From positions 222 to 64,221 of the IMG/VR virus record IMGVR_UViG_3300029288_000175: DNA of 64,000 nt. The stretch is one strand, 5' to 3'. The translations under genes and the position numbers were made by a program. Below are positions 2,534 to 64,000 of this stretch, piece after piece. How positions within the stretch are numbered: the first letter of the stretch is position 1; every line of letters starts with the position of its first letter. The notes below the pieces were generated by a model. That model was not told the origin of the DNA and searched no databases. It saw only the letters and a list, made by a program, of their open reading frames with translations. The DNA comes from a virus. Its lineage: Duplodnaviria; Caudoviricetes.

Positions 2534-3132
2534 ACGCTACCATGCCGCTCGACGTCATGTCCAGCATGGTCGCGTTCCTGCGCGGGGCCGACGACCCCGA
2601 CGGTAGCGCCGCGGTGGAGGTGATGAACATCACGTTCGCGGCGATAGAGGTGGCCGAGGAGGAGATAGCCGCGGCGAAGGTCGCCTACCCCGACCACGCC
2701 GACGCCATCGACAACGTGTTCGCCGTGGCGTATTCGCCGGCCATACCGGTACGAGCGCCGATAGGGCTGCACCGGACACACGTGCGGCAGTTGTGCCGCG
2801 CGGTTGCCCAGGGCAGCGACCTGGACGTGCCGACCCTCGTCGAGTGGGCCTGCATCGTCGGCATGGGCAGCATTGAGTTGGCCGTGGCGCCCAGCACCAA
2901 CATGTGCGTCCCGTTCATGCGGGATGCAGAGACGATGGCCGCGTTCGGCCAGGAGGCGCAGCCGTACCCCGATCACCTGGGTGCTGAGTTGGTGGAGGGC
3001 ATGAAGGCAGCCTACCGCCACGCCTACGCCGCTCAGCACTGGACCCACAAGCCACGGGCTGAGGCGTATCGGCAGTGCCGTCGCGAGAGAGAAGCGCAGA
3101 TAGCGCGACAGTCGCAGCCATCGCTGCTGTAG
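2530..3132 (+). CDS. hypothetical phage protein
   Basis: GTGA overlap with upstream stop. Confidence 0.65.
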   Translation: MNATMPLDVMSSMVAFLRGADDPDGSAAVEVMNITFAAIEVAEEEIAAAKVAYPDHADAIDNVFAVAYSPAIPVRAPIGLHRTHVRQLCRAVAQGSDLDVPTLVEWACIVGMGSIELAVAPSTNMCVPFMRDAETMAAFGQEAQPYPDHLGAELVEGMKAAYRHAYAAQHWTHKPRAEAYRQCRREREAQIARQSQPSLL

Positions 3133-3143
3133 GGAGGAACGAA

Positions 3144-4028
3144 GTGCAGACGACGAACATCCGCGGGCTGCCCGTGCCTCTGGCGCGGGCCATCGCCCAC
3201 AACGACTACGACCACTTGCCGGGCGCCTACTCGGTGACGAGCCTGGTTAGCCCGCCACGCATACGCATTCTGCGGGAGCGGCACGGTGACGAGATCGTAG
3301 AGGATGTGGCAGATCGCATCTGGCTGTTCCTCGGAACGGCCGTGCACCACGTGACGAACGAGTGGGGAGTGGTCGGGAACGCCCTGCAGGAAGAGCGCCT
3401 GTGCATGCTGCTCGACGGCGCGATGATCGCCGGCAAACCTGACCTGTACCAGGAGGACGGCACGGTGACCGACTTCAAGGTCACCAGCATGTGGTCGGTG
3501 GCGGGGGGGGAGGTCAAACCCGACTGGGTGGCGCAACTCAACTGCTACGCCGCGATCCTGCGTTGGACCGGGTTCCCTGTCCACAACCTACAGGTAGTCG
3601 CCATCCTCCGTGACTACTCGGCAAACCGAGCGCTCGGCAACAGCGACCTTCCCGACAAGGCGGTGATAGCGCTGCCGGTGCCGCTGTGGTCGCACGTGGA
3701 CGCTGAGGAGTACCTGCTGGCCCGCCTACGACTGCACCGGGGTTCTGAGGCACTGAAGGACGAGTACCTGCCAGAGTGCACGGCAGAGGAGCGGTACCAG
3801 GACCCCTCGTGGTGGGCGGTCATGAAGTCTGGCCGCAAGTCGGCCTTGAAGCGGTTCCCCGCCCACCAGCGGCTAGAGGCCGAGGCGATGGCGGAATCCG
3901 TCGTTGGCGGCTACGTTGAGGAGCGACCCAGCGAACCGAAGCGGTGCCTCTCGTACTGTGACGTCGCGCCGTGGTGCTCCTGGTTCCGCCAGTGGCAGGC
4001 GAACGCCGCGGCCGCGCCTGAGGAGTGA
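3144..4028 (+). CDS. PD-(D/E)XK exonuclease, Cas4-like phage nuclease
   Basis: GTAVH, GKPDL..DFKVT, QLNCYA and terminal CLSYCDVAPWC; GGAGG RBS. Confidence 0.8.
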   Translation: MQTTNIRGLPVPLARAIAHNDYDHLPGAYSVTSLVSPPRIRILRERHGDEIVEDVADRIWLFLGTAVHHVTNEWGVVGNALQEERLCMLLDGAMIAGKPDLYQEDGTVTDFKVTSMWSVAGGEVKPDWVAQLNCYAAILRWTGFPVHNLQVVAILRDYSANRALGNSDLPDKAVIALPVPLWSHVDAEEYLLARLRLHRGSEALKDEYLPECTAEERYQDPSWWAVMKSGRKSALKRFPAHQRLEAEAMAESVVGGYVEERPSEPKRCLSYCDVAPWCSWFRQWQANAAAAPEE

Positions 4029-41968: not shown

Positions 41969-42957
41969 TGGTCACCTCCGCCAAACATGGCGCGCTCGAA
42001 GGCGCGAGAAATCCGCGCGTCCACTTCGCCGCGCCCGCTCACCAGGATGGTGAACACCTCAGCCTCCCACTCCTGCGAGTTGTCGCGTGCTCGTGCTGTG
42101 GGTGCGGCACCCTGATAGGCTGGCCTCAGACTGCCCGACCCAAATTCATCACGCAATGCACGCGTGAAGGGGCCGTCCGAGGAGTCCGCCTGTTGGCCGT
42201 ACTTGAAACCCCACTGGTGACCCATCTCGTGCAGCGTCGTCGCCTCGTACAGGTCCTCGAAACGGTACAGACTGTGTTCCTGCGCCGTAGCGCTGGTGTA
42301 GTCGTCGTGCACGGCCATGGCTCTGGCCCGCTCAGCATACTGCAACGACTCGGCGGCCAACGTATCGGCGGCCTTGATGTAGGCCCTCTGCTCTGACTCC
42401 GAGCCCTCACCCTGCCTGAACCGCATGTGGGCCACCATCGTGGCGGCTTCCTCCGCCTTGGCCTCCACTTCAGCAATGCGCTCGTCCCACGGCGTCTGAG
42501 CCCCTATGAACACCGCCCCGTCCTGACGATTGGCTCCACCGTTGTTCTTCACGTTGCCGAACCTGATGGAGGTGACGTTATCCAGCCCGTACTCGGAGAT
42601 GACATACTTAGCCGTTCCCAACGCCCGCTCTGCGTCATCGACGGTGCCGCCATCCAACTTGAACTCATCGCCGATATCAACTTGCACAGGGCCAGCGCCG
42701 AGGTCACGCGTGCACGTGTCACACGACCTCTCGGCGTCCCGATGGAACAGGTCCGCCCGCTCGGTGCCACCGGTACTGCCACCCGCGTCGCTGAACCGCC
42801 CAGCCTCATCGCGCGGGTGCAAGTCAGGGTCCCAGTCCGCCTCGGCATACCCTGCCGAGGCTGTAAACACACCACTTTTAGGTTCCAGCGCTATCAGCTC
42901 ATTTAGCCACTCAGCTCTCTTGTCCATAGTACCTCTGAGCGAACTCGTGAGCGCCAT
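41965..42957 (-). CDS. HPR-repeat protein with zincin-like metallopeptidase domain
   Basis: WDPDLHPRDEAGRF repeat; TLHEMGHQWG (HExxH) and downstream EWEAE. Confidence 0.7.
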   Translation of the reverse strand: MALTSSLRGTMDKRAEWLNELIALEPKSGVFTASAGYAEADWDPDLHPRDEAGRFSDAGGSTGGTERADLFHRDAERSCDTCTRDLGAGPVQVDIGDEFKLDGGTVDDAERALGTAKYVISEYGLDNVTSIRFGNVKNNGGANRQDGAVFIGAQTPWDERIAEVEAKAEEAATMVAHMRFRQGEGSESEQRAYIKAADTLAAESLQYAERARAMAVHDDYTSATAQEHSLYRFEDLYEATTLHEMGHQWGFKYGQQADSSDGPFTRALRDEFGSGSLRPAYQGAAPTARARDNSQEWEAEVFTILVSGRGEVDARISRAFERAMFGGGDQ

Positions 42958-45900
42958 CGGCCGTGAACATGTAATCGTTCATCCAGGACTGCTCGTACAC
43001 TCGCGTCATGCCCAACTTCTCGTAGAATCCCACGGCATCCGGGTCAGCGTCTAGCGTAACCCCTCGGCCTTCAGCTCCTGCTATGCGGCATATGTAGGCC
43101 ATCATCGCTGTGCCCTGGCCCGGTTGACTGCGTGTGCTGGCGAGCGCTCGCACTTCCAGGTCGTTGCCCTTGATGCGCACGGAAGCCATGGCCTCCAGTT
43201 GGCCACTGTTACCAGGCTGCCGTAACCCGTATGCCTGGTACTTGTCTGGGTCGTTGCGGGTATCCCCCATGATCAGCCACGCTATCTGGGAAGCCATGCC
43301 ACTTTCGCCAAACCCCCCCAGTTCAGCAGCAGACACACGGTCTAGACGCGCCACCTCCAGGCCAGTACCGATATCAGTCCCCAGCACACGGTGCCCTTGG
43401 CCCTTGATCGGTTTCGACGTATCATCTACACCCGGTCCGCCTCCAGCATCGCTAAACCGCCCCGCCTCATCGCGCGGGTGTAGGTCGGGATCCCAACCAT
43501 CTTCCGTCAGTATCCCAAGTTCCTTGGCCGTATCAGCATAGGCATCGGAGTATGCAATCGTCACCGCAATGCCGCGCGCCTGTAGCGTCTTCGCTAGGGC
43601 CTCGGTCTTCTGTACGTAGTACTGCCTGTCGTCCTCGTACTCCCCGTAGCCTCCTTCCATGACCATGGCCACGCCGGTGATCGCGTTTGGTGTCAGACTG
43701 AGTCCTGTATAGCGCACCTCGCGCTCCCACTGCTCGTTACTGGCCATGGGATACTGCACCGCTTCCCAGTCACCGTTGAGTTGGCCCCGATCAAATGCCA
43801 ACACCGCCACACCGCTATCCCCGCCGAACGTGCTGGCGACGCGAGGCGATATCGTCAGACCTACCGTTGACTCTAACTGCCCACGAGTGCGTTCACCTGT
43901 GACCCAACCAGCCCCGTATAGCCGTCCGTCCTGGTCTATCTGACTCAGCACCTGCGGGAGGTCCCGCAACCCTACACCACGATACAGGGTATCAGCATCC
44001 GCTGCGGCCGTGTTGAACGTTGCCTGCCACCGCTCATGCTCCTCTGGCGAACGTGCGGCGTCACCCTCTGGCACCCCCCGCGGGTAACCAGGGAGGCCAG
44101 GTTCAGGGCACGCCGCCTGTCGGGAGGATGTGCGCGTGATCGCCTGCTTGGTGGCGCCAGCGCGCATCCCTTGGCCACCGGTACCACCACCCGCATCCGT
44201 GAACCTACCCGCCTCGTCGCGCGGCTGGTCGTCCGAGTACTCGGCATACCCCGCGTCCGCCATCTCGTCACCGGGGCCACCACGGTGCCCGATCCACCCA
44301 TCCGCCTGGTTCGCCGGCACTTCCCTACGACGCAGTTCGCAGCGGCAATTGCCACCACAGCTACATTCCTCAGTCGGCAGTGGCAGGTCACCGGAATGTT
44401 GCCAGCCACGAGCGTGGTAGCCCAGGCAATTGTGCACAACAAACCCGTTGGCGATATAATGATGAGCGTCCGCCACTTCGAGATTGTATACAGGAGTTGC
44501 CTCGCCATGGCTTGTGTACGTTGCGGAGTCAACTGCAAGACCTTGTTCTGTAGGCATTGCGGTAAGGCCCATGATCTTTGTGCGTGTGGCGCCGTCAAGT
44601 TGCGCAAAGTCACTCTGTGTCCTGCATGCCGGCCTAAACAGGCTAAACCAACATGCGAACAATGCGGCCGTCCTGTCTACAACAAACATTCCCGGCTCTG
44701 TCGCACATGTTATGGTTACCGTAATTGGACAGAGGTTGAGGACATGTTTCTGCGGCACGAATATGCGGCACATGGCGCCGCGTACTGCGCTGATCATCTT
44801 GACCGTTCGGTCGAGAAGGTGCGAAGCCGTGCCTCGCGCCTTCGCATTGCCGTTGTTCCTGACACTTATGACCGTCTTGTCCACGGTGGCGCTTCCCGCG
44901 CTAACAAGGGACGCAAGTTCTCTGCCGAGACGCGACAGGCGATGCGCGAACGGGCATTGCTTCGACGTGACGAATATGCTGGTTACCTTCTGAAGGGTCG
45001 CCTCGTATGCCAAGTTCAACGCCGCAGCAAGGCCGAACAACGGCTGTGCGACATGCTCGACACGATGACTGTCCCCTACGTTTCCCAGTGCGTCGTCAAC
45101 CAGAAGTTTATCTGCGACGTTGTCGTAGGCAACCTGGTCATTGAGGTTGACGGTGACTACTGGCATGGGCACCCGCGTTTCGAGCCGCTCGACGCGCGTC
45201 AACTTGCACAACACAAACGTGACGCCAGCAAGACGGCCTACTTGACCGCGTGCGGATACGTCGTCGAGCGCATCTGGGAGAGCGACCTGACCGTGGAACG
45301 AGTCCGCAGTGTCCTTACTCAGCACAACTTGCTGGCCGGTGGCGAGTAGATGTGCTGGCCACCATTCACCACTTGGCAAGAGGAACGGGTGGTTACCTGT
45401 GCAGGTGACCGCAAAAGAATCGCTCTCAACGCGCCATAACTCAGTTTCCAATCGGTGCATAGTGTCTATCACGGGCCTAGGCCCCATCGTCGTTATGGCC
45501 ATATCCCCGACACGCACATCTTGAATTGGCGCCCACCTTTTCGTCAGCCGAATTAGCGTATCGGCAGGGAAACACTCGGGGCAGTGCTTGTACGGTTCTC
45601 CCAGGTCGCGGATTTCGATGGTGACGTTCCCCTCAGCCGCTGCGGGGAGACGCGCACGCTCCACCTGGTAGTACTCCGCTCGCGCTTCACCCACGTACAT
45701 GTCCATGCGCGCCTGGGCCTGGGCACTGGATGCCTCTCCCTTGGTCATGTCGGCGCCCAACTGCCGTAGGTGGGTGAACTGGTCCGCCAGGCGCGTGGTG
45801 ATGCCCGCACGGTCGGCGTCGGTGAGGCGATCCCAGCCGCCGGCGGCGAGGGCGGCGTTCTGCACGTACTCGCGCTGTAGCATCGAGGATGCGCGGGCGA

Positions 45901-46111
45901 ACCACGTGTTCTCGCTGATGCGCCCATCCAGCATCGCCTGCACGCCGGCACGGAGGCGCCCCTCACGTTCGGTGGTGCTGCGCTCCAACAGGTCCATGAT
46001 TCTGGTGCGCGCCACGAAGCGCCCGGTCTCGTCCGAACGGTACCGACTGGCGCTGGCATCCCACTCGTAGCCCTGGAGAACGTAGGGGCCGGCCTCGACG
46101 AGAACGTTCAT
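42911..46111 (-). CDS. MuF-like head morphogenesis protein containing an intein, with C-terminal ART-like and GNAT domains
   Basis: Y+RS.ETGRFV, GG...T..D, HCPE/C...PLP..EC.C..NCRC; intein; LYRG..LTISPRVA..F..EREV; GQGTAMM..AVGFYEKLGM. Confidence 0.85.
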   Translation of the reverse strand: MNVLVEAGPYVLQGYEWDASASRYRSDETGRFVARTRIMDLLERSTTEREGRLRAGVQAMLDGRISENTWFARASSMLQREYVQNAALAAGGWDRLTDADRAGITTRLADQFTHLRQLGADMTKGEASSAQAQARMDMYVGEARAEYYQVERARLPAAAEGNVTIEIRDLGEPYKHCPECFPADTLIRLTKRWAPIQDVRVGDMAITTMGPRPVIDTMHRLETELWRVESDSFAVTCTGNHPFLLPSGEWWPAHLLATGQQVVLSKDTADSFHGQVALPDALDDVSARGQVGRLAGVTFVLCKLTRVERLETRVPMPVVTVNLNDQVAYDNVADKLLVDDALGNVGDSHRVEHVAQPLFGLAAALNLAYEATLQKVTSIFVTSKQCPFAHRLSRLGRELASLVSAGSATVDKTVISVRNNGNAKARGTASHLLDRTVKMISAVRGAMCRIFVPQKHVLNLCPITVTITCATEPGMFVVDRTAALFACWFSLFRPACRTQSDFAQLDGATRTKIMGLTAMPTEQGLAVDSATYTSHGEATPVYNLEVADAHHYIANGFVVHNCLGYHARGWQHSGDLPLPTEECSCGGNCRCELRRREVPANQADGWIGHRGGPGDEMADAGYAEYSDDQPRDEAGRFTDAGGGTGGQGMRAGATKQAITRTSSRQAACPEPGLPGYPRGVPEGDAARSPEEHERWQATFNTAAADADTLYRGVGLRDLPQVLSQIDQDGRLYGAGWVTGERTRGQLESTVGLTISPRVASTFGGDSGVAVLAFDRGQLNGDWEAVQYPMASNEQWEREVRYTGLSLTPNAITGVAMVMEGGYGEYEDDRQYYVQKTEALAKTLQARGIAVTIAYSDAYADTAKELGILTEDGWDPDLHPRDEAGRFSDAGGGPGVDDTSKPIKGQGHRVLGTDIGTGLEVARLDRVSAAELGGFGESGMASQIAWLIMGDTRNDPDKYQAYGLRQPGNSGQLEAMASVRIKGNDLEVRALASTRSQPGQGTAMMAYICRIAGAEGRGVTLDADPDAVGFYEKLGMTRVYEQSWMNDYMFTADGAHEFAQRYYGQES
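44432..44496 (+). promoter_or_regulatory. putative promoter and RBS of the antisense endonuclease
   Basis: GTGCAC-17bp-TATAAT (44455-44460); AGGAG 44492-44496; ATG 44507. Confidence 0.6.
44507..45349 (+). CDS. Zn-finger/NUMOD3/DUF559(Vsr-like) putative homing endonuclease, antisense within the intein
   Basis: Multiple CxxC, WTEVED.FL helical repeat, NKGRKFSAETRQAMRE, CDVVVGNLVIEVDGDYWHG..RDASK..YL..CGY.V.RIWE. Confidence 0.88.
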   Translation: MACVRCGVNCKTLFCRHCGKAHDLCACGAVKLRKVTLCPACRPKQAKPTCEQCGRPVYNKHSRLCRTCYGYRNWTEVEDMFLRHEYAAHGAAYCADHLDRSVEKVRSRASRLRIAVVPDTYDRLVHGGASRANKGRKFSAETRQAMRERALLRRDEYAGYLLKGRLVCQVQRRSKAEQRLCDMLDTMTVPYVSQCVVNQKFICDVVVGNLVIEVDGDYWHGHPRFEPLDARQLAQHKRDASKTAYLTACGYVVERIWESDLTVERVRSVLTQHNLLAGGE

Positions 46112-46607: not shown

Positions 46608-49538
46608 TCACCCCCTCATCAGCACGCGCGAGGCGGCTGCCAGCATGGCCGACAACTCCTCTGGACTCAGGTGACCTAACTCTGCCAGGCCAACCCGCGC
46701 CTCTTCCACCGACCGCGCAGGTGGCTCCTTGTCGGCGTCTGGCTCCTGCGGTGGCACCTCATCAGTTTGTGCAGACGCCTGCCTTTCCTCGCCATCCTGG
46801 CCCGGTGCCTCGCCCTTGGCGATCTGCTGCGCCAGCCGTCTGTTCTCCTCGGCCTGCTGCTTCGCGGCGTCCAGCGCCTGCACCACCATGTCAGCACTGA
46901 TCACGTCCTCTACGTCCTGCACCCCCACCGCCTGGAGCGACGCCTGCACGATGGAGGCGATGATCGGCGGGATGGACGCGTCGGGCAGCATGGCAGCCTG
47001 CATCAGCGGCAACACGACCTGCGCCGTCACGTTGACGATGTTCTGCACCTGCGCCGCCGTGTCCGTCTCAAGCAACTTGTCAAGGTTGACCGTCACGTTC
47101 TTGGCGTCTATGCGGTCTTTCCCGTACCTGTTCGCCATGTCAAACACGATCCGGGCCACGTCACGCCACACCGAGGCCCAGAACGACTGGTACGCGCCGA
47201 ATGACAGCTGGATCGGACGCTCCATCGCCGTGGCAGTGTTGCCGGCGATCAGCGGGGCCCCATGGCGCCGCGTGACGAACATGCCGTCTGGTGGGACCTC
47301 AAAGCACCACACCAGGCCGCGATATTCCTCGACGGTCACGTTGATGTGCCGCCGCAGATGCAAACGTTCGCGTCGGTTGCGGTACAACCGCCAACCATCG
47401 CGTTGCATCCACCGGCTGGCTGCATCTCCGTGATGTGGCCCGGCCGATCGTATCTGCGTCAGTTTGCCCCACTCGCCATGATGCAGCATGAGACGTTGCA
47501 CGTCGTCCAACAGCAGGCGAGAGGTGCTGTCAAACCCGCCAACCTGTGTCACGGGGTGGCCGTCCATGCGCTCATGCCCATCACCCGCCATGTACGCGTC
47601 CAACAGTAGCGTTGCCTGTTCATGGGGCAGTGCGAACACGAACGCCGGCAGGCGCCGATTCCACTGGTAGTGGCCTACGTTATCACGCAACCACGCATGC
47701 AAACTGGCATCGCTGCACCGCCATCGCCAGTACGCGCCCTTCATCGGTTTGCGACTAAATGCGAATGGGAGGCGCTCCAGACACGCATCTATGGCCGCGA
47801 CTTCGGCGGTCGCATTCATGCGCTGGCAGAGACTCACCACATGGCGATCCTCCAGGCTGCCCTCAGCGATCCACCAACCCAAAAACGTCAACCAGGCGTC
47901 AGCATCCAGTGGCCGTTCCACGGGCTCGTTGCCCAGGTAGAACTGTTCCAGTCGCTCATGGGACGTGATGCGTGCCATTGACGGTAAACCGAACGCTACC
48001 GGGAGGGCATCAGCACGCACGACGGTAAACGGTCGCACGTGTTGCCGATTCTCGTGTGTCTCGTCGCTGACAAGCATCCGATGGTTGGGCGTCACCAGGG
48101 CGTCGACCTGCGCACCACACAACCGCACCATCGGTCCCGCATACGCGTATACGTGTAGTGCAGACGGTTCGCGGTATGTCAGAACCCCATCACCTGCCGA
48201 GTAACTCGCTATGCGCTGCCCCGGCACCCACTGATGCCATGCACACCAACCATCCTCGGTCAACACCTCGGTCTGGTTGTCATAACACGCGAGTCGATAT
48301 GCATCACCGATGCCTGCGTAGTGCGGGAAGATACGCGCGCTGAGGAGCGCGTACCACGCCAGCGACTCCCCGTCCGCCTTGGCGTCAGAGGCGCCGGTGT
48401 CGAGGTTGAGCTGCCGCAGGCTCTGCGCCTCGTTGCCGAGGTACGTTGACCCCGACACCGGCGGTGGGTTCTGCTCCCAGTCGCCGGTGCTGCCGGCACG
48501 TTGGAGCGTCGAGGCGATCTGTGCCTGCACCGCGTCCACACCACGAGAGCCCGACTTCGTCTTCAGTTCGTTCACGAACATGGACCGGGCCTCAGCGACG
48601 TTGGCCCGGTTGACGCGGAACTGCTCGTGCTCCTTCACCCAGCCGTGGCCGGTGGTCATCAGTGGCCAACCGCGGCCATTCTCGTCCGCCTTGTGCGCCA
48701 CGCACACGACGCAGACGAACGTCATCGACGACGCCTCGTCTGCCCTGATAGCGCCCTGTGGCAACAGGTCACGCGCCTCGATCTTCTTCCCATCGAGATC
48801 CCACCCCAGCCAGTTGGGATCGTTGCCCCTGGTATTGCCGAGCGGCGCCTCACCACCGGCGCGCGGACCGCCGCTCAGGAACGCCAGGTAGTCCGGGTAG
48901 TAGGCATCGTGGAGCTGGCCGTACGGGTGGCCAGGGTCAACCTCGGACCACTGGCGATGCCACCAGACTGTCGTGGTCGCGTCACCCGGCGCCATGATCC
49001 GGTCGACAAACTCCAGACTGTTCAGCGACCGGATGGTGCATTTGCCGGTCGCCTTGGACGCGTACATGGCGAGGAACCGCTCCCCGTCGTGCAGCACGTT
49101 GTTGCTGAGGTCCTGTAGGTAGCGGGCACCCAACACCATGGCGTTCCGGTCAGCCGCCCAGAACTCATTCCAGACCTCGGCCGCCGTCTCGTCGTCTGCC
49201 ACCACGTCGACGTTCTGGCCGTGGCCATACGCGGTCCACAGCCACATGGCATACTCGGCAAGGGGGCTGGATCGTACCAGGTAGCGCGACTCGAAAACGG
49301 CACGGCGCCGGTCTGCCTCGTTAGGCTCGCCGACGCCGAGTTGTAGGTACCCCACCTCGCGGATCAGGTTGGTCAACGTGTGGGAGTCCAGCTCCATCAG
49401 GTCACGCGCGAGGTCTCGCGGCTGGTACGAGTAGGGGCCGCGTACGTATCCCTCGCGCATGATGACGAACGCCTCGCGTATCGCCTGCACCTCCGGTCCC
49501 AGGAGGAACCCGGCCAGGCGTTGCCGTATGCTAGGCAT
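46608..49538 (-). CDS. portal protein containing an intein
   Basis: Follows terminase block; DGE.FL, AH+...RG.PL portal motifs; GAGGAG RBS. Confidence 0.85.
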   Translation of the reverse strand: MPSIRQRLAGFLLGPEVQAIREAFVIMREGYVRGPYSYQPRDLARDLMELDSHTLTNLIREVGYLQLGVGEPNEADRRRAVFESRYLVRSSPLAEYAMWLWTAYGHGQNVDVVADDETAAEVWNEFWAADRNAMVLGARYLQDLSNNVLHDGERFLAMYASKATGKCTIRSLNSLEFVDRIMAPGDATTTVWWHRQWSEVDPGHPYGQLHDAYYPDYLAFLSGGPRAGGEAPLGNTRGNDPNWLGWDLDGKKIEARDLLPQGAIRADEASSMTFVCVVCVAHKADENGRGWPLMTTGHGWVKEHEQFRVNRANVAEARSMFVNELKTKSGSRGVDAVQAQIASTLQRAGSTGDWEQNPPPVSGSTYLGNEAQSLRQLNLDTGASDAKADGESLAWYALLSARIFPHYAGIGDAYRLACYDNQTEVLTEDGWCAWHQWVPGQRIASYSAGDGVLTYREPSALHVYAYAGPMVRLCGAQVDALVTPNHRMLVSDETHENRQHVRPFTVVRADALPVAFGLPSMARITSHERLEQFYLGNEPVERPLDADAWLTFLGWWIAEGSLEDRHVVSLCQRMNATAEVAAIDACLERLPFAFSRKPMKGAYWRWRCSDASLHAWLRDNVGHYQWNRRLPAFVFALPHEQATLLLDAYMAGDGHERMDGHPVTQVGGFDSTSRLLLDDVQRLMLHHGEWGKLTQIRSAGPHHGDAASRWMQRDGWRLYRNRRERLHLRRHINVTVEEYRGLVWCFEVPPDGMFVTRRHGAPLIAGNTATAMERPIQLSFGAYQSFWASVWRDVARIVFDMANRYGKDRIDAKNVTVNLDKLLETDTAAQVQNIVNVTAQVVLPLMQAAMLPDASIPPIIASIVQASLQAVGVQDVEDVISADMVVQALDAAKQQAEENRRLAQQIAKGEAPGQDGEERQASAQTDEVPPQEPDADKEPPARSVEEARVGLAELGHLSPEELSAMLAAASRVLMRG
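47238..48287 (-). mobile_element. intein (350 aa) with in-frame LAGLIDADG endonuclease
   Basis: CYDNQTEVLT, TPNHRM, FLGWWIAEGS, LLDAYMAGDG, VWCFEVPPDGMFVTRRHGAPLIAGN, +1 Thr. Confidence 0.92.
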
Positions 49539-49882
49539 CTGCCCCACTCCTCAACTAGCACCTCCCCCGTCGCTACCATCATACACTCAGGCAAGGACGC
49601 AACGCGAACGCGGGGCAGGGTTCACCCCTTGCATGAGGCGGCGCAAGACGAACGGCGGAGCTGCCAGGTCCGGTACTGGAGGGACTACAAGCCACCAATT
49701 GCGCGGCGCCACCGCGTCGCTCTCAACGATCCTGATCGTCATGCCACACACGGTGATGTGGCGCTCACGGATTGCATTTCGCTCGTTCGCGCTGGCAGGA
49801 TCGAGGTTGATCACAGCAACCCTCCTAGAACTGCACCGGCTGGCACCGCGCCAGGCCGGTATGCCGAACAGTCCGGACGACG

Positions 49883-60534: not shown

Positions 60535-60761
60535 CCGCAGAGCAGGTACGTGAGAAGCGCGCTGAGGCGCAGGGAGAGGTGGTACGGTACGCGGCAATCC
60601 GCGCCGATGCCATGAGACGCTGGAGCGAGGCACTGCAACGCCTAGACCACGACCAGATGCGTACAGCGAACCGTGAGATCGAGGACGCCGGGCGCACGAT
60701 GATGGCGTGGCGGTGGACCAGCGACGCTTTCACAGTGGTACTGGACGGGGAGCCGGAGTGA
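60528..60761 (+). CDS. hypothetical helical protein
   Basis: GGAGG RBS; stop abuts helicase ATG. Confidence 0.65.
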   Translation: MLTAEQVREKRAEAQGEVVRYAAIRADAMRRWSEALQRLDHDQMRTANREIEDAGRTMMAWRWTSDAFTVVLDGEPE

Positions 60762-63700
60762 TGGGCGCTGAATCACGGTTGCTGCTGAGTCGGGCGCTCC
60801 GTCACCTGGCGAGCCGGTGTGACGGGGCGGTCTCGCACGACGATCAGGGATTCGCCGCCCCCGATGTGAGCGACGGCCACCGCTTGGCGCGTGCCGACCA
60901 CGAGTCGTGGACGCTCGCAGAGGCCCAGCGGGCCTGGGAGATTGTCCGGCGCTACTCCGGCCAGCTCGCAGAGGTGGGCATCTCCCCGGCAACGATCCCA
61001 GCCCCGATACCGGAGACGCAGCAGGTCGCCGCCCCAGCCGCCACCAACGGCCACGCCCGCAGGGCCACCCGCGTGGTGACCGTCGAGCAGGGGGTGGTGG
61101 TGATCGCGTTCCCCTACGACGCCGACCTCGTGGCGGCCGTGAAGAGCATCCCCGGCCGGCGGTTCGATTCGGGCCACAAGCACTGGACGGCACCCCTGTC
61201 GTCGCTGGCGGCGGTGCGCGCGTTTGCCGAGAAGCACAGGTTCGTCGTGACCGAGTCGGCCGCGAACGCCCCGGTCACCGAGGCAGCGGCCGCGCCGGCC
61301 CCGCCTAGCAGGACCGTGCGGCTGGACGGCGACCGCCTGGTGGTGCGGTTCGACTATGACGCCGACCTGGTGGCACAGGTGCGGGAGTTGGCCGGCGCCC
61401 GTTGGGACAAGACCGGGCGCCACTGGAGCGTTCCCGTGTCTAGCGCGAGCGTGGCCGCGCTGCGGCGGCTCGGCTTCGTGCCCACGGACCCGAAGGCCCT
61501 CGACGCGGCCGTGGACGGCCTCGCGCGCAACGAGGAGGCCAGCCGCGCTGCCACGTCCACCCTGGAGGTCCCCGGCCTCGGCGGCACGCTGCGGCCGTTC
61601 CAGGCGGCCGGGGTGGCGTACGCTATGAAGCAACGACGATTGTTCATAGCTGATGAGATGGGAACCGGGAAAACTGTGCAGGCGCTGGCAACCGTCCAGG
61701 CCACCAACGCATACCCCGCCCTGGTCGTCTGCCCCGCCTCGCTCAAGCTCAACTGGCAGCGTGAGGCGCGCAAGTGGCTACCCGGCCGGTCGGTCGCCGT
61801 CCTGAACGGGACGATGGACCTGACCGCCGACGTGTGCATCATCAACTACGACGTGCTGGCGCGGCGGTTGGACGCACTGAAGGCGGTCCGCTGGCAGGCG
61901 GTGGTCCTGGACGAGTCACACTACATCAAGAGCGCCAAGGCTCAGCGAACGAAGGCGGCGCAGGAACTGTGCCAGGCGGCACCGCTCCGGCTCCTACTCT
62001 CCGGCACGCCGCTGCTGAACCGGCCCGTCGAGCTGGTGACGCAGTTGCAGGCGCTGGGGCGCCTGGACGAGTTCGGCGGCTCCTGGAAGTTCATCAGCCG
62101 CTACTGTGGGGCCACGCGGACGAAGTACGGCGTTGACATGAGCGGCGCCACCAACCTGGACGAGCTGCACACCCTGCTGCGCCAGCGGTGCCTTCGGGGC
62201 GAAGTTGTGGTAGAATGCGAACATGGACCACTAACTATTGCGGAGATTGTTGAAAGCGAGTTGCCGGTTTCCGTATGGTCGGTGGCAAAGGATGGATGCA
62301 TTGAACTCAGACGAACGGTTGGTTACAGCAAGCGCCATCATCAAGGCGCGTTGGTGCGAGTACGAACAGAGGATGGAAGGTCGTTTGATTGCACCCCCGA
62401 TCATCGGGTTTGGACATCGTGTGGCTACAAACGGGCCGCCGCCCTTACTGGTAGCGATTACGTGTTGGTACTGTGGCAAACGAGTTGTCCGCCGGTGGCA
62501 CGGATTGCAAACCGCCCTAAAGTACTGCTCTCAGAAGTGCGCGGGCAAAGCGGCGGCACAGGACCATGTAAGGGGCCAGCGTATGATGGAAACCAGAGCA
62601 CGCAATCGTGGCCCGGATGTTACGAAGACATGCGAGTGGTGTGGCAAGACGTTCACCGGGCGCAATGTGAAGCAACTGCGGCAACGACGCTTTTGCAGTC
62701 TGTCCTGCTCAAATGCGTGGAAACAAACACTGCCGCATGCACAGAAGACGTTAGCAGCGATGTGGGCGGCACCCAGTCACAAAGGCAAGCGATACCCGGC
62801 AATCAGCGCGGCGTTGAAAGGACGCCGCCGCAGTCAGGAATCAATAGAAAAGGGGCGCGTTACCGCACGAGCAAGGCATCGGCTTCCGGGCCGCAGCGAT
62901 CGCATATCACCCTGTGCACGAAAACTATGCGCGGCGCTAGGGTGGCAGGAACAGTGGTTAGAGTACATGTTGGAGATCAAAAAGCCCCAAGGCAAGTTCA
63001 TAACCGGGGTTCGGAACTTCCTGTATCTAGACTTAGCAAACCCGCAATACAAGTTAGCGGTAGAAGTAGACGGTACTACTCATCGTCTTCTCAGGCAACA
63101 GCAACTAGATGCATGGAAGACGAGAGTACTTCTGTCGTTAGGGTGGCGAGTATTGAGGTACTCCAATCAGCAGGTGACGGACGAGTTGACGGCAGTAGTT
63201 GTGGAGGTGCAGTCGTTTATGACATCGAGGTAGAAGGGAACCACAACTTCTTTGCCAACGGAGTGCTTGTTTCTAACTGCTACGTGCGCCGCACGAAGGC
63301 GCAGGTCCTCGCTGAACTGCCGGCGAAGCAGCGCGTGGCGGTTCCTCTCGAACTCAGCAACGAGGCTGAGTACCGCCGGGCAGAGCGCGACGTGGCCGGC
63401 TACCTGCGTGACCGGGCCGCGGAGCACGCCCGCGAGGATGCCGTGCGCGACGGCGCGGACCTGTTCGCGGCTGAGGCTCGCGCCCGCGCCGCCGGGAACC
63501 GCGCGAGCAGCGCGGCGGAGACGGCGCAGCAGTTGGTGCGGATCGAGGCCCTGAAACGCCTGGCGGCCGAGGGGAAACTGAGGGCAGCGATCGGGTGGGC
63601 GCAGGACTTCCTCGACGCGGCCGAGGGCGAGAAACTCGTGCTGTTCGCCCACCACGTTGACGTACAGCAGCGCCTGTACGACGCGTTCCCCGGCGCGGCG

Positions 63701-64000
63701 CGCCTGATGGCTGAGGACTCAGTGCAGGAGCGCCAGGCCAACGTGGATCGGTTCCAGACCGACCCGGCCTGCCGGCTGATCGTGTGCAGCCTGACCGCTG
63801 GTGGCGTGGGCATCACACTCACCGCCGCCAGTAACGTGGCGTTCCTGGAACTCGCTTGGACACCTGCATCAATGAGCCAGGCAGAGGATCGCGTGCATCG
63901 CATCGGCCAGCGCGACGCCGTGACGGCGTGGTACCTGCTGGCCGCCGGCACGATTGACGAGGACATCGAGGCGCTACTGGAGGCGAAACGTGCCGTGATG
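60761..64000 (+). CDS. HARP/SMARCAL1-like SNF2 helicase containing an intein (truncated by window end; absent from ORF track)
   Basis: Hand translation: two HARP domains (FPYDADLV..VK.IPGRRFD), LRPFQ..GV, ADEMGTGKT, DESH, SGTP, AGGVGITL, QAEDRVHRIGQ. Confidence 0.9.
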   Translation, partial: MGAESRLLLSRALRHLASRCDGAVSHDDQGFAAPDVSDGHRLARADHESWTLAEAQRAWEIVRRYSGQLAEVGISPATIPAPIPETQQVAAPAATNGHARRATRVVTVEQGVVVIAFPYDADLVAAVKSIPGRRFDSGHKHWTAPLSSLAAVRAFAEKHRFVVTESAANAPVTEAAAAPAPPSRTVRLDGDRLVVRFDYDADLVAQVRELAGARWDKTGRHWSVPVSSASVAALRRLGFVPTDPKALDAAVDGLARNEEASRAATSTLEVPGLGGTLRPFQAAGVAYAMKQRRLFIADEMGTGKTVQALATVQATNAYPALVVCPASLKLNWQREARKWLPGRSVAVLNGTMDLTADVCIINYDVLARRLDALKAVRWQAVVLDESHYIKSAKAQRTKAAQELCQAAPLRLLLSGTPLLNRPVELVTQLQALGRLDEFGGSWKFISRYCGATRTKYGVDMSGATNLDELHTLLRQRCLRGEVVVECEHGPLTIAEIVESELPVSVWSVAKDGCIELRRTVGYSKRHHQGALVRVRTEDGRSFDCTPDHRVWTSCGYKRAAALTGSDYVLVLWQTSCPPVARIANRPKVLLSEVRGQSGGTGPCKGPAYDGNQSTQSWPGCYEDMRVVWQDVHRAQCEATAATTLLQSVLLKCVETNTAACTEDVSSDVGGTQSQRQAIPGNQRGVERTPPQSGINRKGARYRTSKASASGPQRSHITLCTKTMRGARVAGTVVRVHVGDQKAPRQVHNRGSELPVSRLSKPAIQVSGRSRRYYSSSSQATATRCMEDESTSVVRVASIEVLQSAGDGRVDGSSCGGAVVYDIEVEGNHNFFANGVLVSNCYVRRTKAQVLAELPAKQRVAVPLELSNEAEYRRAERDVAGYLRDRAAEHAREDAVRDGADLFAAEARARAAGNRASSAAETAQQLVRIEALKRLAAEGKLRAAIGWAQDFLDAAEGEKLVLFAHHVDVQQRLYDAFPGAARLMAEDSVQERQANVDRFQTDPACRLIVCSLTAGGVGITLTAASNVAFLELAWTPASMSQAEDRVHRIGQRDAVTAWYLLAAGTIDEDIEALLEAKRAVM
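62189..63277 (+). mobile_element. intein (363 aa) in the helicase, no in-frame endonuclease
   Basis: LRQR/CLRGEVVV, block B TPDHRV, VYDIEVEGNHNFFANGVLVSN/CYVRRTK; frame open throughout on hand translation. Confidence 0.9.
62238..63233 (+). CDS. Zn-finger/NUMOD3/DUF559 putative homing endonuclease in the +1 frame inside the intein (start uncertain: 62292, 62373 or 62421)
   Basis: CWYCGK..KYCSQKC, CEWCGKTF..RFCSLSC, KGRRRSQESIEK, LDLA...KLAVEVDG..H....D..K...L..LGWRVLRY.N. Confidence 0.88.
   Translation: MRRLLKASCRFPYGRWQRMDALNSDERLVTASAIIKARWCEYEQRMEGRLIAPPIIGFGHRVATNGPPPLLVAITCWYCGKRVVRRWHGLQTALKYCSQKCAGKAAAQDHVRGQRMMETRARNRGPDVTKTCEWCGKTFTGRNVKQLRQRRFCSLSCSNAWKQTLPHAQKTLAAMWAAPSHKGKRYPAISAALKGRRRSQESIEKGRVTARARHRLPGRSDRISPCARKLCAALGWQEQWLEYMLEIKKPQGKFITGVRNFLYLDLANPQYKLAVEVDGTTHRLLRQQQLDAWKTRVLLSLGWRVLRYSNQQVTDELTAVVVEVQSFMTSR

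What the first reader, a model, noticed from the sequence alone, without database searches (positions are those of the whole stretch)
62189..63277. Second dual-coding intein: same nuclease family in the +1 frame inside the SNF2 helicase intein
Hand translation shows the helicase frame (from ATG 60761) running without a stop through a 363-aa intein (CLRGEVVV...TPDH...VYDIEVEGNHNFFANGVLVSN/C) with a featureless middle. The +1 frame (to TAG 63231-63233) encodes Zn fingers, NUMOD3-like and DUF559-type nuclease motifs. An extended -10 (TGgTAGAAT, 62208-62216) sits in block A codons and could drive it. The intein ends in Ser-Asn rather than His-Asn. Automated annotation would miss the intein or call a broken helicase.
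Basis: partly seen in the sequence, partly recalled or inferred. Interest (0 to 1): 0.86.

Follow-up and report, generated by a model that had tools for sequence, protein, structure and literature searches.

The report
Helicase intein with overprinted homing endonuclease
A phage helicase gene carries a self-splicing protein insert (intein) whose DNA also encodes, one base out of step, a separate DNA-cutting "homing" enzyme; the double coding is real and non-random, but this kind of layout has already been described, so it is a new variant and not a new kind.

Summary
The SNF2/HARP helicase frame is stop-free through a 363-codon intein (62189-63277). The +1 frame holds a 331-codon ORF (62238-63233) with two Cys4 zinc fingers and a DUF559/Vsr-fold nuclease. 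Neither frame stayed open in 20,000 synonymous shuffles of the other.

In the helicase frame only the two HINT lobes fold; the 212 residues between them are predicted disordered. The nearest helicase relative (P0153) lacks the intein and reads exactly LRQRCYVRRTK.

The nuclease family is almost always overprinted. In 77 of 80 viral loci, and in the isolated phages CP-T1 and phi673, it sits +1 inside an intein-bearing ORF. In relatives the nuclease frame is under purifying selection (dN/dS 0.12-0.27) while the host frame is not (1.1-1.6).

Two points are specific to this locus:
- The insertion site is the SNF2 "LRRxK" block, not the Walker-B "DE|C" site used by nearly all relatives. Only one allelic intein was found (P0208).
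- The Ser-Asn ending is a clade trait, not a defect.

Out-of-frame intein endonucleases are published (Gorbalenya 1998; Gosselin et al. 2025; Phillips et al. 2026). This scan has also noted the same layout on at least 21 other genomes. Splicing, expression and cleavage are untested.

The parts
60761..62188 (+). N-extein of the SNF2/HARP (SMARCAL1-like) helicase. The start is ATG 60761 or GTG 60707. It includes two HARP repeats, Walker A (GTGKT) and an intact motif II (DESHYIKS...QRTK) near 61905-61965.
   Evidence: ORF list and translation. Pfam SNF2-rel_dom 2.6e-29, HARP 2.9e-7, ResIII. Homologues.
62189..63277 (+). Intein of 363 codons in the helicase frame: Cys1 ... TPDH (block B) ... VYDIEVEGNHNFFANGVLVSN, followed by Cys+1.
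   Evidence: Pfam PF14890, 44.3 bits. The AF2 model matches the Mtu RecA intein splicing domain at Foldseek E 9e-8. The intein-less allele P0153 reads LRQRCYVRRTK.
62189..62482 (+). HINT N-lobe (intein residues 1-98), confidently folded.
   Evidence: pLDDT 91-97. Blocks A and B are conserved in alignment A3.
62483..63118 (+). Intein residues 99-310 in the helicase frame: a stop-free linker predicted to be disordered. It is the out-of-frame reading of the nuclease gene.
   Evidence: pLDDT below 50 throughout. This stretch is poorly conserved in A3. In relatives the host frame has dN/dS 1.1-1.6.
63119..63277 (+). HINT C-lobe (residues 311-363, blocks F and G, Ser-Asn end). Its first 112 nt are also the 3' end of the nuclease gene: RVASIEVLQS in the helicase frame is GWRVLRYSNQ in the +1 frame.
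   Evidence: pLDDT 80-95 except residues 330-336. Two-frame read-out.
62238..63233 (+). +1-frame ORF, 331 codons from the first possible start TTG 62238 to TAG 63231-63233: the putative free-standing homing endonuclease. The true start is unresolved. Candidates are TTG 62250 (GGAG at 62242-62245), ATG 62292, ATG 62373 and GTG 62421.
   Evidence: 1550 homologous clusters. AF2 confidence is low for residues 1-70 and high from about 71 on.
62463..62540 (+). Zinc finger 1 of the nuclease (C76, C79, C97, C101).
   Evidence: Translation. Alignment A1.
62631..62708 (+). Zinc finger 2 of the nuclease (C132, C135, C153, C157; invariant in 26 relatives).
   Evidence: A1 invariant columns. Pfam zf-FCS_1 at E 7e-4, below its cut-off.
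62889..63230 (+). DUF559/Vsr-fold catalytic domain (residues about 218-331) with E276, D278, H282, D291 and K294.
   Evidence: Pfam DUF559 1.1e-10. Profile against PDB: 3hrl 6e-13, I-Bth0305I 3r3p 2e-4. VIA-align Z 11.1 (3hrl), 10.1 (Vsr 1cw0), 9.7 (3r3p).
63278..64000 (+). C-extein, CYVRRTKAQV... through Helicase_C and motif VI (QAEDRVHRIGQ). It runs off the window end.
   Evidence: P0152 is the full 1109-aa gene call.
62208..62216 (+). It is present but not statistically supported.

Best explanation
This is a bona fide class-1 intein inserted in the SNF2 'LRRxK' block of a phage HARP/SNF2 annealing-type helicase. Its DNA also carries a complete, separately translated homing-endonuclease gene in the +1 frame.

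Proposed mechanism:
1. The helicase is translated straight through the intein.
2. Intein residues 1-98 and 311-363 assemble into a HINT domain, joined by a disordered linker of about 210 residues. The intein then splices out and leaves LRQR-CYVRRTK.
3. Ribosomes that start independently inside the intein, in the +1 frame, make a protein of about 270-330 aa. It has two Cys4 zinc fingers, a helical linker and a DUF559/Vsr-fold nuclease domain.
4. That nuclease is expected to cut intein-less helicase alleles of co-infecting relatives. Repair then copies the intein and nuclease together (homing).
5. Selection acts on the nuclease frame. The helicase frame over the same DNA only has to stay free of stops.

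Shown here: both frames are open non-randomly; both folds are predicted; an empty allele and one allelic intein exist; the element's base composition is foreign to its genome. In relatives, frame-specific selection and their own ribosome-binding sites are also shown.

Inferred only: splicing, expression, start codon, cleavage and target site.
For: - Frames: both are open, and 0 of 20,000 synonymous shuffles reproduced this in either direction. T is depleted at nuclease codon position 3 (14%), as expected from avoiding stops in the host frame.
- Intein: PF14890 scores above its cut-off. AF2 gives a HINT fold in two lobes with a disordered middle, matching solved inteins at E 9e-8. Cys1, TxxH, the terminal Asn and Cys+1 are all present.
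- Empty and filled alleles: P0153, the best-scoring helicase homologue (67% and 86% identical over the flanking exteins), has LRQRCYVRRTK. L164 and L165 are also empty. P0208 carries an allelic intein at the same site.
- Nuclease: DUF559 at 1.1e-10, 1550 homologous clusters, all family-invariant residues kept, Vsr/DUF559/I-Bth0305I fold at Z 9.7-11.1.
- Family context: 77 of 80 IMG/VR loci, plus Vibrio phage CP-T1 gp10 and Corynebacterium phage phi673 gp43, have the nuclease +1 inside a longer ORF. That ORF shows intein blocks F and G at the nuclease stop.
- Selection in relatives: nuclease-frame dN/dS is 0.12-0.27 against 1.1-1.6 for the host frame, and differences pile up at nuclease codon position 3.
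- Independent translation in relatives: a Shine-Dalgarno core lies before the ATG nearest the first zinc finger in 27 of 66 loci, against 13.6% of random positions.
- Foreign composition: extein GC3 is 0.89, while the intein is 0.50-0.59 at every codon position.
Against: - No close relative of this particular intein could be fetched, so frame-specific selection is shown only for cousins, not for this locus.
- The start codon is unresolved. There is no strong Shine-Dalgarno sequence with good spacing before ATG 62292 or GTG 62421. The first 70 residues of the ORF fold poorly.
- The promoter-like string is at chance level.
- The penultimate residue is Ser, not the usual His, although the clade shares this.
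- Intein and extein identities between the window and P0208 are similar (46-47% against 51-53%). There is therefore no direct signal of recent horizontal transfer.
- The genome is an uncultivated viral contig, so no expression or splicing data exist.
Confidence: 0.84

Rival explanations
1. The +1 nuclease gene is a silent or recently inactivated passenger in this phage. The intein still splices, but the ORF is no longer expressed and the element is now inherited only vertically.
For: No convincing promoter or ribosome-binding site at this locus. The intein is rare at this site: 2 of about 120 helicase clusters. There is no excess of intein identity over extein identity against P0208.
Against: A 331-codon ORF with every family-invariant residue intact. 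0 of 20,000 shuffles kept it open. The composition is still far from the host genome, which argues for recent arrival. Relatives are under strong purifying selection.
Confidence: 0.08
2. The nuclease is real and expressed but has been domesticated. It serves the phage, for example by degrading host or competitor DNA or excluding superinfection, and does not home the intein.
For: Vsr/DUF559-fold nucleases have many roles. Cleavage specificity is unknown. The family persists over long evolutionary distances.
Against: It is found almost only inside inteins, in one fixed register. Empty and filled alleles coexist. The nearest characterised relative by fold and profile is a homing endonuclease, I-Bth0305I.
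Confidence: 0.05
3. The nuclease is made not from its own start but by programmed +1 ribosomal frameshifting out of the helicase/intein frame. That would give an N-extein/HINT-N/nuclease fusion.
For: The +1 ORF opens only 46 nt after the intein start, and its first 70 codons have no clear role.
Against: Relatives start at an ATG just before the first zinc finger, often with a strong Shine-Dalgarno sequence. No slippery site was looked for or seen. A TAA closes the +1 frame at 62232-62234, so any shift would have to occur after it.
Confidence: 0.02
4. Assembly or sequencing artefact: an ordinary in-frame endonuclease domain thrown out of frame by two compensating indel errors.
For: The source is a metagenome-assembled viral contig.
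Against: The helicase frame would then be expected to hit stops (about 11). The same +1 register occurs in 77 of 80 independent contigs and in two isolated, sequenced phages.
Confidence: 0.01

Closest known systems
Non-canonical actinobacteriophage inteins whose homing endonuclease lies in a separate frame or strand (Gosselin, Arsenault and Gogarten, bioRxiv 10.1101/2025.01.02.630785)
   Same: A HINT splicing domain in the extein frame. The usual endonuclease region gives no recognisable structure in that frame. A complete endonuclease ORF lies in another frame or strand. A Vsr-like nuclease is among the types reported. The proposed origin is a free-standing endonuclease gene invading a mini-intein.
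   Different: That paper reports Vsr-like endonucleases only on the antisense strand, and same-strand out-of-frame only for endonuclease VII-like enzymes. Its hosts are DNA polymerase, minor capsid, terminase and thymidylate synthase. Here the Vsr/DUF559 nuclease is same-strand +1, has two zinc fingers, and sits in an SNF2 helicase.
[quoted passage not shown]
   Same: A same-strand overlapping endonuclease ORF inside a contiguous intein. dN/dS is low in the endonuclease frame and raised in the extein frame over the overlap. Secondary invasion of a mini-intein is proposed.
   Different: That endonuclease is LAGLIDADG in a +2 ORF in bacterial dnaX. This one is DUF559/Vsr-fold, +1, in a phage helicase.
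'Fractured genes': split inteins flanking a free-standing Vsr-like endonuclease gene (Dassa et al. 2009, PMC2677866), and I-Bth0305I (PDB 3r3p)
   Same: A Vsr-fold homing endonuclease associated with phage inteins in DNA-metabolism genes. It has its own expression signals, and its 3' end overlaps the C-terminal intein half (6-69 bp there, 112 nt here). Fold Z is 9.7 and profile E is 2e-4 to 3r3p.
   Different: In fractured genes the host frame is interrupted and the intein is split and trans-splicing. Here the host frame stays open and the intein is contiguous. By sequence this nuclease is closer to DUF559 (3hrl, 6e-13) than to I-Bth0305I.
The same overprinted helicase-intein family noted earlier in this scan on other genomes (for example e1-4197980, e1-5664071, e1-3897962)
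   Same: The same nuclease family, the same +1 register, and the same pattern of selection (and re-derived independently).
   Different: Nearly all of those, and all but two of the 41 inteins placed on my HINT tree, sit at or just after the Walker-B motif ('DE|C', a few 'DEAH|C' or 'HY|C') of SNF2, DExH or DnaX-like proteins. The two exceptions are the window and P0208. The window's intein sits in the SNF2 'LRRxK' block, with motif II intact, and P0208 is its only allelic partner found.

Membership tests
Intein (HINT domain, class 1) | Nucleophile (Cys or Ser) at intein position 1 | tested here: met
   TGC at 62189. C1 is invariant in A3.
Intein (HINT domain, class 1) | Block B TxxH | tested here: met
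   TPDH at residues 69-72. T69 is invariant and H72 nearly invariant in A3.
Intein (HINT domain, class 1) | C-terminal Asn followed by Cys, Ser or Thr at +1 | tested here: met
   N363 followed by Cys (63278-63280). This Cys is native in intein-less homologues (LRxxCYVRRxK).
Intein (HINT domain, class 1) | Penultimate His (block G) | tested here: not met
   The residue is Ser362. The same Ser occurs in 17 of 25 aligned relatives. From my own knowledge (Chen, Benner and Perler 2000), splicing-competent inteins without this His are known, so it is usual but not obligatory.
Intein (HINT domain, class 1) | HINT fold | tested here: met
   PF14890 at 44.3 bits against a cut-off of 35.8. AF2 plus Foldseek matches the Mtu RecA, Ssp DnaE and Ssp DnaB inteins, E down to 9e-8, rmsd 1.3-2.6 A.
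Intein (HINT domain, class 1) | In-frame insertion at a conserved host site, with uninterrupted homologues | tested here: met
   P0153, L164, L165 and most of 120 homologues are uninterrupted at LRxxC|YVRRxK.
Intein (HINT domain, class 1) | Protein splicing activity | not testable with these tools
   Needs an expression assay.
DUF559 / Vsr-like endonuclease (PF04480) | Profile match above the curated threshold | tested here: met
   41.8 bits against 20.6. The family profile hits the DUF559 structure 3hrl at 6e-13.
DUF559 / Vsr-like endonuclease (PF04480) | Vsr-type restriction-endonuclease-like fold | tested here: met
   Z 11.1 (3hrl, rmsd 2.1 over 87 residues), 10.1 (Vsr 1cw0), 9.7 (I-Bth0305I).
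DUF559 / Vsr-like endonuclease (PF04480) | Conserved active-site residues (E.D..H ... D..K) | tested here: met
   E276, D278, H282 and D291 are invariant and K294 nearly invariant in A1, and all are present in the window.
Homing endonuclease (functional class) | Encoded within a self-splicing element, with sporadic filled and empty alleles | tested here: met
Homing endonuclease (functional class) | Purifying selection on the endonuclease frame | tested here: inconclusive
   Shown for related inteins (omega 0.12-0.27). No close relative of this locus could be fetched.
Homing endonuclease (functional class) | Cleaves the empty allele at or near the insertion site | not testable with these tools
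   Needs an enzyme assay.
Non-canonical intein with the endonuclease in a separate frame | Extein frame open through the endonuclease region, with no in-frame endonuclease domain | tested here: met
Non-canonical intein with the endonuclease in a separate frame | Complete endonuclease ORF in another frame or strand over that region | tested here: met
Fractured gene / split intein with a free-standing Vsr-like endonuclease gene (Dassa 2009) | Host gene broken into two ORFs, each carrying a split-intein half | tested here: not met
   The helicase frame is continuous.
NUMOD3 DNA-binding motif | Match to Pfam NUMOD3 | tested here: inconclusive
   No hit at E <= 0.1. A conserved helical 'NP...R.K' region exists between the fingers and the nuclease domain.

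The most novel reading that the evidence does not exclude
The overprinted intein-nuclease unit normally lives at the Walker-B 'DE|C' site of P-loop NTPases. Here it has colonised a new target, the SNF2 'LRRxK' block, which means a natural re-targeting of the nuclease. The fixed +1 register of the whole family may be forced by a motif-on-motif fit: the nuclease's GW.VLRF.N motif is the same DNA as the intein's RV.S.E.L strand. If so, the family would be a long-lived, obligately dual-coded gene pair, and a natural test case for how a homing endonuclease changes target.
Probability: 0.35. Interest if true: 0.65.

Novelty: new variant of a known kind. Interest (0 to 1): 0.5.

Why it matters
- It adds a well-documented case to the small published set of inteins whose endonuclease is a separate overlapping gene. 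The combination is not in those papers: same-strand +1, DUF559/Vsr fold with two zinc fingers, in a helicase host.
- The nuclease gene is left unannotated even in GenBank records of isolated phages (CP-T1, phi673). Intein surveys that look only in frame will misclassify this family as inteins with a middle of unknown function.
- About 112 nt encode structured parts of two proteins at once. That makes the locus a compact natural example of constrained dual coding.
- The unusual insertion site offers a way to study how a homing element acquires a new target.
- It does not open a new category.

Tried and rejected
- Megablast of the helicase region against phage genomes gave no match.
- tblastn of the +1 ORF and the intein against the window found no significant second copy. 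The antisense nuclease of the other intein is detectable only by profile comparison.
- The word-based protein search found one weak relative. The full HMMER search was needed.
The genomic contexts of the best nuclease relatives (P0002, P0003, P0006) and of P0208 therefore could not be read.
- P0002 in genome contigs gave nothing.
- An IMG/VR scan for inteins at the same junction returned only inteins in other genes and intein-less helicases.
- A metagenome scan for close helicase relatives gave at most 58% identity (71% over one 90-residue fragment), and the two loci that reach the insertion site (L164, L165) are intein-less there.
- Promoter evidence: a consensus scan and pattern counts were both at chance level.
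- NUMOD3 was not detected by Pfam.
- A HINT-domain tree pairs the window with P0208 (SH-aLRT 84) but cannot place the pair. The direction of any site switch is unresolved.
- Intein and extein identity against P0208 are about equal, so there is no transfer signal.
- I considered that the new site might resemble the motif II site (both have ...RTKA...). The resemblance is not collinear, so I dropped it.
Full report
**Setting.** The window is almost the whole of a 64,221-base IMG/VR viral contig. It is linear, and CheckV rates it about 79% complete. It is high-GC (about 67%) and phage-like, with portal, tail and replication genes. Megablast found no near relative in the phage collection.

**Observation.**
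- The ORF that starts at GTG 60707 or ATG 60761 runs to the window end without a stop.
- Pfam reads it as an SNF2 helicase with HARP repeats and Helicase_C. An Intein_splicing match (PF14890) is split into an N part and a C part around a long unmatched middle.
- The intein is 62189-63277, 363 codons. It has Cys1, block B TPDH, block F/G VYDIEVEGNHNFFANGVLVSN, and then Cys+1.
- The +1 frame is open from the TAA at 62232-62234 to the TAG at 63231-63233. That is 331 codons counted from TTG 62238.
- The +1 ORF scores as DUF559 (1.1e-10, above the curated cut-off), with weak zf-FCS hits.
- GC drops from about 70% to 50-58% exactly over the intein. Extein GC3 is 0.89, while the intein is 0.50-0.59 at all three codon positions. 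The element is therefore compositionally foreign.

**Is the double openness chance?** No.
- I kept the +1 protein and shuffled its synonymous codons. The helicase frame then carried 11 stops on average and was open in 0 of 20,000 trials.
- The reverse test gave 9.3 stops on average and also 0 of 20,000.
- T is the rarest base at nuclease codon position 3 (14%). Avoidance of T|AA, T|AG and T|GA in the helicase frame predicts this.

**What each frame makes.**
- Helicase frame: AlphaFold2, using 25 related inteins as the alignment, folds residues 1-98 and 311-363 with pLDDT mostly of 88-97. Residues 99-310 stay below 50. The folded part matches solved intein splicing domains: Mtu RecA at E 9e-8, and Ssp DnaE and DnaB.
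- +1 frame: AlphaFold2, with 25 homologues, is confident from about residue 71 to the end. It gives two Cys4 fingers (C76/C79/C97/C101 and the invariant C132/C135/C153/C157), a helical region, and a C-terminal domain.
- That C-terminal domain matches the DUF559 protein 3hrl (Z 11.1), Vsr (Z 10.1) and the homing endonuclease I-Bth0305I (Z 9.7).
- The family profile hits 3hrl at 6e-13 and 3r3p at 2e-4.
- All family-invariant residues, including E276, D278, H282 and D291, are present.
- The last 112 nt of the nuclease gene overlap the structured HINT C-lobe. One stretch of DNA reads RVASIEVLQS in the helicase frame and GWRVLRYSNQ in the +1 frame. Each of these matches a conserved motif of its own family.

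**Insertion site and alleles.**
- The best-scoring helicase homologue, P0153, is 67% and 86% identical over the flanking exteins. It is uninterrupted and reads LRQRCYVRRTK, exactly the predicted spliced junction.
- Other relatives (L164, L165 and most of the 120 best hits) are also empty at this site.
- One more distant helicase, P0208, has an allelic intein at the same position (MRAM|CLRYDT...VHN|CFIRRTKAQV). It is also the closest HINT relative of the window's intein.
- The Cys at +1 is a native, conserved residue of this helicase subfamily.
- The helicase's own motif II (DESHYIKS) is intact.

**The family.**
- The +1 protein has 1550 homologous clusters at E <= 1e-3.
- tblastn against sequenced phages places its relatives inside annotated helicases of Vibrio phage CP-T1, Corynebacterium phage phi673 and others. 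In both records I opened, the match is +1 relative to the annotated CDS and is not annotated as a gene.
- In 80 IMG/VR loci fetched with the family alignment, 77 have the nuclease inside a longer ORF, always in the same register. The host frame shows intein blocks F and G at the nuclease stop.
- The hosts are SNF2 helicases, DExH helicases, DnaX-like clamp loaders and giant ORFs. The intein almost always follows the Walker-B 'DE'.
- Ser-Asn endings are common in the SNF2 clade: 17 of 25 in alignment A3.
- In a gapless group of five related loci, differences concentrate at nuclease codon position 3. dN/dS is 0.12-0.27 in the nuclease frame and 1.1-1.6 in the host frame.
- A Shine-Dalgarno core precedes the ATG nearest the first zinc finger in 27 of 66 loci, against 13.6% of random positions. 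The nuclease is therefore a separately initiated gene in the family.

**What stays open at this locus.**
- The start codon is unresolved. Candidates are TTG 62250 with GGAG four bases upstream, ATG 62292, ATG 62373 and GTG 62421. Most homologues begin at the position matching GTG 62421.
Selection on this exact lineage is inferred from cousins.
- Intein and extein divergence from P0208 are similar. The tree cannot say where the LRRxK lineage came from.

**Prior art.**
- Gosselin, Arsenault and Gogarten (bioRxiv 10.1101/2025.01.02.630785) describe actinophage inteins with endonucleases in a separate frame or strand: antisense LAGLIDADG, antisense Vsr-like, and frame-3 endonuclease VII-like. The hosts are DNA polymerase, minor capsid, terminase and thymidylate synthase. 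They cite Gorbalenya 1998 for earlier cases.
- Phillips et al. (bioRxiv 10.64898/2026.09.14.751524) show a +2-frame LAGLIDADG endonuclease in the cyanobacterial dnaX intein, with the same dN/dS asymmetry.
- Dassa et al. 2009 (PMC2677866) describe free-standing Vsr-like endonuclease genes between split-intein halves, overlapping the downstream half.
- I found no paper describing a same-strand +1 DUF559/Vsr endonuclease in helicase inteins.
- This scan has already noted that layout in at least 21 other genomes.

**Verdict.** This is a real, well-supported dual-coding intein. It is a new variant of a known kind. Its own points of interest are the atypical SNF2 LRRxK insertion site, the Ser-Asn clade trait, and the motif-on-motif overlap at the HINT C-lobe.

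Noticed in passing
window 42911-46111 (-) and 44036-45349 (+): A 1066-aa ORF, MuF-like by its HCPE|C motif and with a GNAT tail, carries another intein (CFPADT...VVHN|CLGY). The intein's middle holds a zinc-finger plus Vsr-like ORF on the opposite strand. This matches the published antisense Vsr-like architecture.
   Followed up: partly
window 46608-49547 (-): The portal gene carries a third intein, a canonical one with in-frame LAGLIDADG motifs (AYRLA|CYDNQTE ... LGWWIAEGS ... LLLDAYMAGDG ... LIAGN|T). The genome therefore has three inteins with three endonuclease geometries.
   Followed up: partly
L002 (Vibrio phage CP-T1, locus 2953-3702) and L003 (Corynebacterium phage phi673, locus 2599-3237): In both isolated phages the helicase CDS contains an intein with an unannotated +1-frame nuclease ORF of the same family (249 and 212 codons). 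GenBank lists only 'helicase'.
   Followed up: yes
L005, L006, L010, L012, L013, L037, L051 (IMG/VR loci): The same intein-nuclease unit sits in ORFs that stay open across the whole 8.6-8.8 kb locus (over 2800 codons). These are giant phage proteins of unknown type with a DE|C or DEAH|C site.
   Followed up: no
P0187, P0204, P0206, P0242, P0265 (helicase homologues): Phage SNF2 helicases related to this one carry inteins at three or more other sites: after Walker A (LAGLIDADG type), at motif II, and at motif VI (VVHN|CHRIGQ).
   Followed up: partly
L025-L028, L033, L041, L050, L056, L058, L062, L068 (IMG/VR loci): The same +1 nuclease family also occurs in inteins of DnaX/clamp-loader-like genes (DE|CH.LS..A..LLK.LEEPP). 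This is the same site class as the cyanobacterial dnaX intein, but with a different endonuclease family.
   Followed up: no
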